From Candidatus Aenigmatarchaeota archaeon (GTDB lineage: Archaea > Aenigmatarchaeota > Aenigmatarchaeia > CG10238-14 > SpSt-28): a stretch of 43,705 bases of DNA. How positions within the stretch are numbered: the first letter of the stretch is position 1; the number at the start of each line of letters is the position of its first letter. The position numbers and the translations under genes are program-made. The notes beneath the pieces were generated by a model. That model was not told the origin of the DNA. It did no database searches and saw only the letters and a program-made list of their open reading frames with translations. Where the stretch lies: NCBI GenBank assembly GCA_032249395.1, contig JAVVFY010000006.1, positions 1 through 43,705 of the forward strand, read 5' to 3'. Positions 7,584 to 36,876 of the stretch are shown piece by piece.

Positions 7584-7683
7584 TGGGGCTGCTGGGATTT
7601 GAACCCAGATCAGCTGGTTTCCTCATTTTGTCGGAGCTCCATAGCTGGAGCCAGCCGTCCTAACCTGGTTAGACGACAGCCCC
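7584..7683 (-). tRNA. tRNA-Trp(CCA) with 26-nt intron at 37/38 (7619-7644)
   Basis: Acceptor GGGGCTG/CAGCCCC, anticodon stem GCTGG/CCAGC, CT-CCA-G, T-loop TTCAAAT. Confidence 0.9.
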
Positions 7684-9693: not shown

Positions 9694-9729
9694 TATAGTT
9701 TTTATTGAAAATAAAAATTAAAAAATTGT

Positions 9730-10000
9730 GGGTGACACGCCCTCGGTGGATAGACGTTATCTTACTACTTAATCCAACTAACCCTTCTAAACCCCGTATC
9801 TCTACAGCATTTAGTTATCTCCTTACCCTTGCTGCATTCCTGCCCTGGGGGATTCGGAGATAACTAAACCCATAGAGGCGAGGTTTCATCGTCGGGTAGT
9901 TGGGGTAGTAAGATAACGTCTACCGCCCTCGGGCTTCGGCCCGGCCATTATGGACCGTTTGCCGTGACAGGCGAGGCCCAGCCGCCCGGCCTAGTCACCC
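9730..10000 (-). ncRNA. ffs: Archaeal SRP RNA (7S)
   Basis: GC-rich; paired ends GGGTGAC/GTCACCC; Alu-like 5' GGCCGGGCGG; long helix 5; helix 8 CCAGG-GCA-GGAA-TGC-AGCAAGG. Confidence 0.9.
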
Positions 10001-10075
10001 ACTATTTATATTTTGAATGCATAGAAATATATTTAAATATTTCAACTCACTATAAGTATAGCATAGGTGAAAATA

Positions 10076-11912: not shown

Positions 11913-12040
11913 TGCAGGGGGTGGGATTTGAACCCACGAAGGGACTAACCCAGCAGGTTTCTTCTTAGCACCTAAGCTTCGGCTAATTCTGAGCTTCAGC
12001 TTTTTATCTGCCGCCATCGACCAGGCTAGGCGACCCCTGC
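11913..12040 (-). tRNA. tRNA-Leu (most likely TAG) with introns at 30/31 and 37/38
   Basis: Same D-arm, variable arm and T-arm as the other two Leu tRNAs; removing 30 nt and 12 nt gives an 86-nt tRNA with CT-TAG-GA loop. Confidence 0.8.
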
Positions 12041-21144: not shown

Positions 21145-21268
21145 GCGGGGGTCGCCTAGCCTGGTCGATGGCGGCAGGCTCAAGTAAGGTTTTCTTGAGC
21201 TTTGATTAGATGATGAGAAGAAACCTGCTGGGTTAGTCCCTTCGTGGGTTCAAATCCCACCCCCCGCA
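21145..21268 (+). tRNA. tRNA-Leu(CAA) with 38-nt intron at 37/38 (21185-21222)
   Basis: GCGGGGG/CCCCCGC-A, GCAGG/CCTGC stem, long variable arm; 86 nt after splicing. Confidence 0.9.
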
Positions 21269-36741: not shown

Positions 36742-36876
36742 GCCGGGGTCGCCTAGCCTGGTCGATGGCGGCAGCGCCATTGTCGAAGCTTAAGTGCTGG
36801 CTAGGCACATAAGCTCAGATTAATGAAGAAACCTGCTGGGTTAGTCCCTTCGTGGGTTCAAATCCCACCCCCGGCA
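36742..36876 (+). tRNA. tRNA-Leu(TAA) with introns at 30/31 (36775-36787) and 37/38 (36795-36830)
   Basis: Leu-type arms and A73; removing 13 nt and 36 nt gives an 86-nt tRNA with GCAGG-CTTAAGA-CCTGC. Confidence 0.85.

What the first reader, a model, noticed from the sequence alone, without database searches (positions are those of the whole stretch)
21185..21222. Minimal box C/D-like guide inside the tRNA-Leu(CAA) intron aimed at its own wobble C34
Seen: the intron reads …TCTTGAGCT-TTGA-TTAG-ATGATGA-GAAGAA. That is antisense to the tRNA's own G30-A38, a D'-like box (21202-21205), a 4-nt loop and a perfect C box (21210-21216). The fifth base upstream of the D box pairs with C34. Established: box C/D guides direct 2'-O-methylation by the D+5 rule; D'-loop-C' forms an L7Ae-binding K-loop; Leu(CAA/UAA) wobble bases are 2'-O-methylated by TrmL in bacteria. 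Inference: a single-K-loop guide built into a Leu intron. I know intron-encoded guides only from the larger two-guide euryarchaeal tRNA-Trp intron.
Basis: partly seen in the sequence, partly recalled or inferred. Interest (0 to 1): 0.9.

Follow-up and report, generated by a model that had tools for sequence, protein, structure and literature searches.

The report
Self-aimed methylation guide in tRNA-Leu intron
The short intron of this hot-spring archaeon's leucine tRNA gene carries one protein-binding kink motif next to a stretch that pairs with the tRNA's own anticodon loop, a pared-down design shared by many tRNAs of its lineage that most likely directs a sugar methylation of the first anticodon base before splicing.

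Summary
Window 21145-21268 (+) is a tRNA-Leu(CAA) gene with a 38-nt intron (21185-21222) at position 37/38. The intron reads: 9-nt connector, CUUGAGC (antisense to nt 31-37), U, UUGA, UUAG, AUGAUGA, GAAGAA. The fifth base upstream of UUGA pairs with C34.

It is one member of a large family. Ten tRNAs of this 0.75-Mb genome carry the same module, each with an antisense matching its own anticodon. Twenty-seven Leu orthologues keep it, with G-to-A switches where C34 becomes U34. A covariance model finds it in 81 of 151 sampled genomes of the phylum, and in 50 of 51 sampled genomes of the same order. A public-genome scan puts it almost only in Aenigmatarchaeota. Fibrillarin, Nop5 and L7Ae are encoded; no SpoU/TrmL gene was found.

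Best reading (about 0.55): a single C'/D' K-loop guide in the pre-tRNA directs 2'-O-methylation of C34, in a fold that excludes the splicing fold. Methylation is not shown. Published single-motif complexes lose site specificity, which counts against this reading.

Closest known are the two-motif tRNA-Trp intron guide, Pyrococcus sR47 (Cm34 of tRNA-Leu(CAA), in trans) and the Nanoarchaeum tRNA-Met intron. This is a new variant of a known kind. Earlier notes of this scan describe the same design in other DPANN genomes.

The parts
21145..21268 (+). tRNA-Leu(CAA) gene with intron; CCA is not encoded and a T-run follows
   Evidence: Rfam tRNA 40.8 bits; aragorn -i
21145..21184 (+). 5' exon (nt 1-37)
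21181..21183 (+). anticodon CAA; the proposed target C34 is base 21181
21178..21184 (+). target strand GCUCAAG (nt 31-37), which pairs with the intron antisense
   Evidence: 7 of 7 Watson-Crick pairs; covariation
21185..21222 (+). 38-nt intron at canonical position 37/38
21185..21193 (+). 9-nt connector loop UAAGGUUUU; variable in length and sequence among orthologues
   Evidence: alignment
21194..21200 (+). guide-like antisense CUUGAGC (n8 to n2); n5 is G21197, opposite C34
21201..21201 (+). n1 spacer U; U in 58 of 77 family members; can pair with the last A of the C' box
21202..21205 (+). D'-like box UUGA; the GA is invariant in 77 of 77 family members
21206..21209 (+). K-loop spacer UUAG, variable among orthologues
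21210..21216 (+). C'-like box AUGAUGA; a second register GAUGAGA (21212-21218) is also possible
21217..21222 (+). tail GAAGAA: the 3' half of a relaxed bulge-helix-bulge motif. G21220 can pair with C32 and A21219 with U33; the bulge is A21221-A21222|A38
   Evidence: 71 of 77 members have the bulge AA|A; 2-4 of 4 helix pairs in all 77
21223..21268 (+). 3' exon (nt 38-73)
7584..7683 (-). tRNA-Trp(CCA) with a 26-nt intron (7619-7644) of the same design: UGGAGC-U-CCGA (7631-7634)-CAAA-AUGAGGA (7620-7626); n5 is opposite C34 (7648)
36742..36876 (+). tRNA-Leu(UAA) with two introns. The second (36795-36830) has the same design: UAAGC-U-CAGA (36816-36819)-UUA-AUGAAGA (36823-36829); n5 is opposite U34 (36791)

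Best explanation
The intron is a minimal, single-motif box C'/D'-type methylation guide built into the pre-tRNA. Inferred sequence of events: (1) After transcription, nt 31-37 of the anticodon loop pair in cis with the intron antisense CUUGAGC. (2) The adjacent UUGA and AUGAUGA form a K-loop (tandem sheared G.A pairs closed by a 4-6 nt loop) that binds L7Ae. (3) L7Ae recruits Nop5-fibrillarin. (4) Fibrillarin 2'-O-methylates the nucleotide opposite the fifth guide base, C34, giving Cm34. (5) The RNA then refolds so that C32-U33 pair with the AG of the intron tail and the 3' splice site sits in the AA|A bulge. (6) The splicing endonuclease removes the intron.

Shown here: the anatomy, its conservation, the covariation of guide and anticodon, the fixed register, the presence of the three proteins, and the mutual exclusivity of the two folds. 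Inferred: L7Ae binding, methylation, the order of events, and whether the guide acts in cis or, as an excised intron, in trans.
For: 1. Anatomy and register; 7 of 7 Watson-Crick pairs to nt 31-37, with n5 opposite C34.

2. Same module in other tRNAs of this genome. Nine further tRNAs carry it, each with an antisense to its own anticodon loop and n5 opposite nt 34: Leu UAA, Gln UUG, Glu UUC, Lys UUU, Ser UGA, Ser CGA, Trp, Met and Arg UCU. Seven other intron-bearing tRNAs and Leu(UAG) have no motif hit.

3. Orthologues. Twenty-seven Leu(CAA/UAA) genes from relatives keep the module, while loop lengths and sequences drift.

4. Covariation in alignment A2 (37 rows). Pairs 31:n2, 32:n3, 33:n4 and 34:n5 are paired in 37 of 37 rows. 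The 34:n5 pair has 10 double changes. Pairs 35:n6 and 36:n7 are paired in 36 of 37. None of 500 shuffles reaches the covariation score, and pairing collapses to 25-50% when the partner is slid by 1-3 columns.

5. Covariation in A3 (40 hits from more distant families, 39 distinct rows). 34:n5, 35:n6 and 36:n7 are paired in 39 of 39 rows. 31:n2 is paired in 38 of 39, with 13 double changes.

6. K-loop core. In 77 of 77 sequences D' ends in GA and a TGA lies downstream.

7. Specificity and spread of covariance model R1. In the own genome it finds 8 hits at E<1e-5, all tRNA introns; the next hit has E=0.15. It matches 81 of 151 genomes of the phylum sample and 50 of 51 of the own order.

8. Machinery. 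Fibrillarin (234 bits), Nop5 (211 bits) and L7Ae (97 bits) are present. SpoU/TrmL-type enzymes gave 0 matches. FtsJ hits are only weak, at most 37.5 bits.

9. Choice of host tRNAs. In Pyrococcus, four sRNAs target nt 34 of Leu(CAA), Leu(UAA), Met and Trp (PMC7994747, passages), and the sR47 RNP methylates C34 of tRNA-Leu(CAA) in vitro (PMC5558902, passages). Those four tRNAs are the commonest hosts of the module: 36 of the 40 distant hits I fetched. All hosts have C34 or U34. By my curation, none of the 16 G34 tRNAs of this genome has it.

10. Same K-loops in ordinary guides of this genome. The 16S rRNA introns carry two-motif C/D RNAs whose internal K-loops have the same form: CCGA-8 nt-AUGAGGA and CUGA-CGA-AUGAUGA.

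11. Folding. The nearest-neighbour minimum-energy fold of the arm contains the guide helix: -11.9 against -7.4 kcal/mol for the enforced splice-type fold at 37 C, and -3.2 against +1.5 at 70 C.
Against: No modification or binding data exist for this RNA.

There is only one K-motif. By eye I found no second C/D pair in the intron or exons. Hardin and Batey (PMC1635284, abstract and passages) report that a single-site hemi-complex is active only at very high salt and is not site-specific. They also report that adding a second C/D motif restores specificity.

The conserved duplex is 6-7 bp, whereas archaeal guides are 10-12 nt (PMC7994747, passages).

D' is UUGA, not CUGA, and the box motif alone occurs in 40% of shuffled introns.

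In Leu(CAA) the UGAG inside the C' region is itself complementary to C32-A35. In one orthologue (G026) it forms a perfect 4-bp splicing helix, so part of the 'C box' may be kept for splicing.

In tRNA-Thr(UGU) a related intron helix persists in one relative (G017) without any K-loop. Such helices can therefore have a K-loop-independent role.

The fixed register could also follow from a fixed junction geometry rather than from the +5 rule.
Confidence: 0.55

Rival explanations
1. The K-loop is an L7Ae-binding site that chaperones or times pre-tRNA folding and splicing at high temperature. The antisense helix only masks the anticodon loop until the intron is removed. Fibrillarin does not act and no methyl group is added.
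For: The guide helix and the splice-type helix use the same nucleotides 32-35 and exclude each other. All 77 introns keep a relaxed 3' bulge-helix element. The Thr(UGU) intron helix survives without a K-loop in G017. Single-motif complexes are poor, unspecific methyltransferases in vitro (PMC1635284, abstract and passages). L7Ae has several roles outside methylation: RNase P and regulation of mRNA translation (search listings and abstracts).
Against: This reading does not explain why the helix always starts at nt 31, breaking the 31:39 pair, so that the fifth base faces nt 34. It does not explain why hosts are only C34/U34 tRNAs. It does not explain why the hosts include exactly the four tRNAs whose nt 34 is C/D-guided in Pyrococcus (PMC7994747). 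Seven other intron-bearing tRNAs of the genome splice without any K-loop.
Confidence: 0.2
2. The guide works only after excision. The free 38-nt intron, linear or circular, binds L7Ae-Nop5-fibrillarin and methylates C34 of other pre-tRNA or mature tRNA-Leu molecules in trans. Two intron RNAs may share one Nop5 dimer, which would supply the missing second motif.
For: The tRNA-Trp intron guide is described as acting in trans as pre-tRNA or as excised intron (PMC4090602 and PMC7994747, passages). The Nanoarchaeum tRNA-Met intron accumulates as a stable RNA (PMC3491384, passages). In own Leu, U21193 could add a pair with A38 of the spliced tRNA.
Against: The position opposite A38 is not conserved. 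The cis hairpin is the favoured fold, and its short connector is kept in all members. The RNA-library contigs show only an unspliced piece (21193-21268), and contigs cannot show a free intron.
Confidence: 0.12
3. The shared sequence is a relic of one intron family that spread among tRNA genes. Only the antisense and the AGAA tail are under selection, for splicing. The GA..UGA motif is compositional.
For: The box motif occurs in 40% of shuffled introns, and the loose motif is common genome-wide. Many introns of the genome look alike.
Against: The two GA dinucleotides are invariant in 77 of 77 sequences across families, while the loops between them vary from 2 to 17 nt. The motif sits at a fixed one-base distance from the antisense in every case.
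Confidence: 0.05
4. The module recruits another activity to nt 34, for example a base modification guided by antisense pairing, rather than ribose methylation.
For: Wobble C/U carry many modifications in archaea, including ac4Cm, s2Um and mchm5Um (PMC7668247, passages). No ELP3 homologue was found.
Against: No such guided activity is known for K-loop RNAs in archaea. The boxes match the C'/D' motifs of this genome's own rRNA-directed C/D RNAs.
Confidence: 0.05

Closest known systems
Box C/D sRNA nested in the euryarchaeal pre-tRNA-Trp intron (Haloferax volcanii; Pyrococcus sR50)
   Same: It is an intron of a tRNA gene that carries an antisense to the tRNA's own anticodon region next to a D-type box. 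The target is nt 34 (and 39). The same three proteins are involved, and the guide fold competes with the splicing fold (PMC4090602 and PMC7994747, passages).
   Different: The Trp intron is a complete sRNA with both C/D and C'/D' motifs and two guides. Here there is a single K-loop, one 6-7 bp antisense and 26-38 nt in all. The host is tRNA-Leu, plus at least nine other tRNAs in the same genome. The 2014 review calls the Trp case 'a unique example'.
Pyrococcus abyssi sR47, a free-standing box C/D sRNA
   Same: Same substrate and site: C34 of tRNA-Leu(CAA), methylated in vitro by the reconstituted RNP (PMC5558902, passages).
   Different: sR47 is a separate gene with two box motifs and acts in trans on the tRNA.
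Stable C/D-like RNA in the 66-nt intron of Nanoarchaeum equitans elongator tRNA-Met (Randau 2012, PMC3491384)
   Same: It is a DPANN archaeon whose tRNA intron carries one box C and one box D.
   Different: It is longer, has a GC hairpin, no target was assigned, and it was found in one tRNA only. Here the target register is explicit and the design recurs in many tRNAs and genomes.
Engineered single-site 'hemi' box C/D complex (Hardin and Batey 2006, PMC1635284)
   Same: One K-motif plus one guide.
   Different: It is artificial, active only at high salt and not site-specific. If the natural module works, it must gain specificity in another way, for example from the cis hairpin, the tRNA body, or pairing of two RNAs on one Nop5 dimer.
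TrmL (bacterial SpoU-type Cm34/Um34 methyltransferase of tRNA-Leu CAA/UAA)
   Same: Same proposed product on the same tRNAs. This function of TrmL is recalled from my own knowledge and comes from no call.
   Different: TrmL is a protein-only enzyme. No SpoU-family gene was found in this 89.5%-complete genome.

Membership tests
Archaeal box C/D guide RNA (canonical) | Box C (RUGAUGA) and box D (CUGA) that can form tandem sheared G.A pairs | tested here: met
   AUGAUGA at 21210-21216 and UUGA at 21202-21205. The GA of both boxes is invariant in 77 of 77 relatives. The first D' letter is U rather than C in 62 of 77.
Archaeal box C/D guide RNA (canonical) | Two motifs per RNA (terminal C/D K-turn plus internal C'/D' K-loop) | tested here: not met
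   Only one motif. No second GA/GA pair is conserved in the intron or flanking exons (by eye). The nearest D-like word in the 3' exon is CUGG.
Archaeal box C/D guide RNA (canonical) | Guide of 10-12 nt complementary to the target, directly upstream of D or D' | tested here: inconclusive
   The antisense is directly upstream of D' with a one-base spacer, but only 6-7 bp are conserved.
Archaeal box C/D guide RNA (canonical) | Target nucleotide opposite the fifth base upstream of D/D' is a plausible 2'-O-methylation site | tested here: met
   n5 faces nt 34 in all 37 rows of A2 and all 39 distinct rows of A3. Nm34 is documented in archaeal Leu, Trp, Met and Gln tRNAs (PMC7668247, PMC5558902).
Archaeal box C/D guide RNA (canonical) | L7Ae, Nop5 and fibrillarin encoded in the genome | tested here: met
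   all above the Pfam cut-offs.
Archaeal box C/D guide RNA (canonical) | L7Ae binding and guided methyl transfer | not testable with these tools
   Needs biochemistry or modification mapping.
K-loop (C'/D'-type L7Ae site) | D'-type xxGA and C'-type UGA closed by a short loop, with a non-canonical stem that continues into Watson-Crick or wobble pairs | tested here: met
   The loop is 2-10 nt in 73 of 77. All three flanking pairs are possible in 64 of 77, with the best GA chosen for each sequence, which favours the motif.
Intron-encoded self-guide of the pre-tRNA-Trp type | The guide lies in the intron of the tRNA that it targets | tested here: met
Intron-encoded self-guide of the pre-tRNA-Trp type | A complete two-guide sRNA that directs Nm34 and Nm39 | tested here: not met
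   One guide, one motif. Separate Thr and Cys introns of this genome have n5 opposite nt 39.
Archaeal tRNA intron with bulge-helix-bulge motif | 3' splice site in a 3-nt bulge next to the anticodon stem, followed by a 4-bp helix with nt 32-35 | tested here: inconclusive
   The bulge AA|A is present. Own Leu forms only 2 of 4 helix pairs; across the family 2-4 of 4 form. A proper 5' bulge with a closing helix was not found by hand. Two EndA-domain ORFs are encoded.

The most novel reading that the evidence does not exclude
A whole archaeal lineage has moved its wobble-ribose methylation guides into the introns of the target tRNAs as natural 'hemi' C/D guides. One K-loop plus a 6-7 bp cis antisense would suffice for site-specific Nm34 on at least ten tRNA species per genome, with sister introns aimed at nt 39. 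This would contradict the in-vitro rule that two box motifs are needed for specificity. These tRNA introns would then be kept because they are the guides. In a genome where no ELP3 was found, Um34/Cm34 could be the main device that restricts wobble reading in the two-codon boxes. All five U34 tRNAs of purine-ending split boxes carry the module.
Probability: 0.35. Interest if true: 0.85.

Novelty: new variant of a known kind. Interest (0 to 1): 0.72.

Why it matters
If the module works as read, it is the smallest natural RNA guide for 2'-O-methylation. It would also be the first case where a whole set of tRNAs carry their own wobble-methylation guides in their introns. That would give a concrete function for the retention of tRNA introns in reduced archaeal genomes. 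It would give a natural test of whether a single K-motif can position fibrillarin precisely. It would offer a compact design for programmable RNA methylation. If the K-loop instead serves only folding or splicing, it would be a new role for L7Ae in pre-tRNA maturation.

Tried and rejected
1. RNA evidence. One search found 18 DNA-type and 2 RNA-library runs, all kept as contigs. Laying X19, X20, X1 and X4 gave one 76-nt RNA-library contig over 21193-21268, an unspliced intron-to-3'-exon piece. There was no spliced joint in the RNA runs. The only joint (21177/21225, in DNA run X1) is the intron-less paralogue Leu(GAG). Contigs cannot show ends, levels or strand, and DNA may be present in such libraries, so this result supports neither reading.

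2. Strict patterns for canonical two-motif sRNAs gave 0, 0, 0 and 1 hits. These patterns miss the C/D RNAs that I then saw in the 16S introns. A relaxed pattern gave 73 mostly coding hits. I therefore make no claim about the number of ordinary sRNAs.

3. The loose genome-wide motif scan is not specific.

4. Leu(CAA) of G028 (L033) and own Leu(UAG) have an intron at 30/31 with a module-like element whose fifth base would still face nt 34. In G028 the 'guide' is also sequestered in an 8-bp intron hairpin, so I set this aside as ambiguous.

5. I looked by eye for a second K-turn, a C box upstream of the guide, or a D box in the 3' exon, and found none.

6. One folding constraint ('guide helix enforced') was mis-indexed by one base, so I ignore that line. 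The unconstrained minimum-energy fold already contains the guide helix.

7. Clouet-d'Orval 2001 (PMC92551) and Nolivos 2005 (PMC1289080) are not held. What I say about them comes from passages of papers that cite them.

8. Searches for a published description gave no paper describing a single-K-loop guide in tRNA-Leu or in DPANN tRNA introns (tRNA intron/K-loop/Cm34; Nanoarchaeum/tRNA intron/sRNA; DPANN/kink-turn/L7Ae; half-mer/Nop5; intron-encoded/O-methylation/pre-tRNA; Aenigmarchaeota/tRNA/intron/fibrillarin). The library cannot search the string 'C/D' and lacks many subscription papers.

Full report
**What is there.** The window belongs to a 752,806-base, 25-contig archaeal genome that is 89.5% complete. 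Bases 21145-21268 (+) are a class II tRNA-Leu gene with anticodon CAA (21181-21183) and a 38-nt intron (21185-21222) after nt 37. Default ARAGORN and Rfam at gathering filters missed the gene. The intron reads UAAGGUUUU-CUUGAGC-U-UUGA-UUAG-AUGAUGA-GAAGAA. CUUGAGC (21194-21200) is the perfect complement of nt 31-37, GCUCAAG (21178-21184). Counting upstream from UUGA, the fifth base (G21197) faces C34 (21181). The pairing to G30 is only a possible G.U wobble. The pairing to A38 exists only in the spliced tRNA and is not conserved.

**Chance.** For this one intron, 47 of 200,000 shuffles reproduce an xxGA..UGA motif with at least 6 of 7 antisense pairs in the right register. The box motif alone appears in 40% of shuffles. 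A loose genome-wide scan is not specific either (312 hits against 151-179 in shuffles). The case rests on comparison with other sequences.

**A family, not a single case.** Nine further tRNAs of this genome carry the same plan: Leu UAA, Gln UUG, Glu UUC, Lys UUU, Ser UGA, Ser CGA, Trp CCA, Met CAU and Arg UCU. In each, the order is an antisense to the tRNA's own nt 31-36/37, one spacer base, xxGA, a short loop, (R)AUGAxRR, and a tail ending AGAA before A38. The motif regex gives one to five hits per tRNA. In each of the ten tRNAs, one hit has the tRNA's own anticodon loop as its best 7-nt target (6 or 7 Watson-Crick pairs), with the fifth base opposite the first anticodon base. Seven other intron-bearing tRNAs have no motif hit: Ile UAU, Tyr, Arg UCG, Glu CUC, Gln CUG, Pro GGG and the tRNA at C2:54231. 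Leu UAG has none either.

**Orthologues.** A BLAST search of 41 genomes (own plus 40 relatives) gave full-length, intron-containing matches. From 30 fetched loci I extracted 27 Leu(CAA/UAA) orthologues with the module. I left out L032 (an intron-less Leu UAG) and L033 (intron at 30/31). Loops vary in length and sequence, while the antisense, the two GA dinucleotides and the tail are kept. Where the anticodon is UAA, the antisense changes from G to A.

**Covariation.** On the 37-row alignment A2 (28 Leu plus 9 other own tRNAs), pairs 31:n2, 32:n3, 33:n4 and 34:n5 are formed in 37 of 37 rows. There are 4 double changes at 31:n2 and 10 at 34:n5. Pairs 35:n6 and 36:n7 are formed in 36 of 37, and 37:n8 in 22 of 37. 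None of 500 shuffles reaches the covariation score, and sliding the partner by 1-3 columns drops pairing to 25-50%.

**Spread.** A covariance model of the arm plus intron (R1) finds eight of the ten own members at E<1e-5, and nothing else in the genome better than E=0.15. In a sample of 151 genomes of the phylum, 81 have a hit at E<=1e-4. That is 50 of 51 genomes of the own order and 30 of 99 from other families, with up to 8 hits per genome. I fetched 40 hits, chosen by me from more distant families. They are Trp 16, Leu CAA 7, Met 7, Leu UAA 6, Gln UUG 3 and Glu UUC 1. On this model-fitted alignment, 34:n5, 35:n6 and 36:n7 pair in 39 of 39 distinct rows, and 31:n2 in 38 of 39 with 13 double changes. 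Over all 77 sequences D' ends in GA and a UGA lies downstream. D' is UUGA in 62, CUGA in 9 and CCGA in 3.

**Taxonomy.** An exact-pattern scan of one genome per prokaryote species gave 110 stretches, of which 80 were listed. Forty-one have a full-length model match of at least 34 bits. All 41 are labelled Aenigmatarchaeota or unnamed archaeon, except one labelled Woesearchaeota. The bacterial hits match the model only partly, at no more than 27 bits.

**Machinery.** Fibrillarin, Nop5 and L7Ae are encoded. No SpoU-family enzyme was found. FtsJ-type hits are only weak. No ELP3 was found. A PP-loop ATPase is present. Two ORFs carry the EndA catalytic domain. By inference this fits a heteromeric, broad-specificity endonuclease. 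The 16S gene (C13:566-3110, 2545 nt for a 1478-position model) contains introns with two-motif C/D RNAs. Their internal K-loops, CCGA-8 nt-AUGAGGA and CUGA-CGA-AUGAUGA, have the same form as those in the tRNA introns.

**Two folds.** The unconstrained fold of the arm has the stem 27-30:40-43 plus the guide helix, at -11.9 kcal/mol at 37 C. An enforced splice-type fold (anticodon stem, C32:G and U33:A with the intron tail) costs -7.4. At 70 C the figures are -3.2 and +1.5. In all 77 sequences, nt 32-35 can form 2-4 of 4 pairs with the four intron bases before the last two, and the bulge is AA|A38 in 71. The AGAA tail is therefore the 3' half of a relaxed bulge-helix-bulge. It uses the same nucleotides as the guide helix, so the two folds exclude each other. 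This has also been described for the tRNA-Trp intron; I recall that from memory, and the reviews I read say only that the guide acts in trans or intramolecularly.

**Mechanism and its weak point.** The best reading is a cis guide for Cm34. Box C/D-guided Cm34 of tRNA-Leu(CAA) is established in Pyrococcus (sR47; PMC5558902, passages). Four Pyrococcus sRNAs target nt 34 of Leu CAA, Leu UAA, Met and Trp (PMC7994747, passages). Nm34 is documented on Trp, Met, Gln and Leu tRNAs of thermophilic archaea (PMC7668247, passages). Those four tRNAs are the main hosts of the module. In the own genome all hosts have C34 or U34. All five U34 tRNAs of purine-ending split boxes carry the module, and no G34 tRNA does (my curation).

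The helix always begins at nt 31, at the cost of the 31:39 pair, and this is what places nt 34 opposite the fifth base.

The weak point is the single motif. Hardin and Batey found that a single-site complex is barely active at ordinary salt and not site-specific, and that a second C/D motif restores specificity (PMC1635284, abstract and passages). The conserved duplex is also short. The natural module would therefore need another source of precision, such as the cis hairpin, the tRNA body, or two RNAs on one Nop5 dimer. None of these is tested.

A further caution comes from tRNA-Thr(UGU). Its intron pairs across the 3' splice junction with nt 38-42. A K-loop sits so that the fifth base faces nt 39, with compensatory changes in seven relatives. 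However, G017 keeps the helix without a K-loop, and G007 has neither.

**Comparison and novelty.** The closest known system is the complete box C/D sRNA in the euryarchaeal tRNA-Trp intron, which a 2014 review calls a unique example (PMC4090602, passages). The Nanoarchaeum tRNA-Met intron is a stable C/D-like RNA without an assigned target (PMC3491384, passages). I found no paper describing a single-K-loop guide in tRNA-Leu or in a set of tRNA introns (searches; the library is incomplete). Earlier notes of this scan describe the same design in other DPANN genomes and a guide in this genome's 16S intron. I used them as leads and checked what I could. I file the finding as a new variant of a known kind. 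It fails the two-motif criterion of canonical box C/D RNAs, so it is not a member of that family in the strict sense, but it most likely works like one.

Noticed in passing
G000:C1:71188-71287 (+) tRNA-Thr(UGU) and G000:C1:89845-89945 (+) tRNA-Cys(GCA); loci L042, L043, L090-L102: A second class of K-loop introns. The stretch upstream of the D'-like box pairs across the 3' splice junction with nt 38-42, so that the fifth base faces nt 39. This is the second site guided by the Haloferax tRNA-Trp intron. For Thr the pairing co-varies in seven relatives, but G017 keeps the helix without a K-loop and G007 has neither.
   Followed up: partly
G000:C13:566-3110 (-), locus L104: The 16S rRNA gene is 2545 nt long for a 1478-position model. 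It carries introns with two-motif box C/D RNAs antisense to the 16S itself. One has ..CCGA-8 nt-AUGAGGA-12 nt-CUGA against the region around position 790. Another, near the 3' end, has GAUGAUA-13 nt-CUGA-CGA-AUGAUGA. Guides sitting in introns of their own targets seem to be a theme of this genome.
   Followed up: partly
window 11913-12040 (-) tRNA-Leu(UAG); window 36742-36876 (+) tRNA-Leu(UAA); G000:C9:29202-29326 tRNA-Lys(UUU): These tRNAs have an extra intron at 30/31 (13-30 nt) in addition to the one at 37/38. In Leu(UAG) the 30/31 intron contains GAAGCU-CAGA..CGAAG, which would again put a fifth base opposite U34 from the 5' side. This is ambiguous.
   Followed up: partly
whole genome G000: No ELP3 (TIGR01211) and no SpoU-family methyltransferase were found in an 89.5%-complete genome, while a PP-loop ATPase (PF01171, 56 bits) is present. 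The wobble-uridine modification repertoire may be reduced.
   Followed up: partly
G000:C2:53656-53934 (-) and G000:C3:60241-60486 (-): Two ORFs (open frames of 225 and 408 aa) carry the tRNA-intron endonuclease catalytic domain. This suggests a heteromeric or multi-unit enzyme able to cut the relaxed splice motifs seen here.
   Followed up: no
window 9729-10001 (-): Archaeal SRP RNA (Rfam RF01857, 145.8 bits). It lies among a cluster of tRNA genes: Trp, Val, Leu UAG, Glu CUC and Phe.
   Followed up: no
locus L161 (record labelled Candidatus Woesearchaeota): A tRNA-Leu(CAA) intron with the same module and textbook boxes (CUUGAGC-A-CUGA-8 nt-AUGAUGA) but a different 3' tail. The design therefore occurs outside genomes labelled Aenigmatarchaeota.
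   Followed up: no
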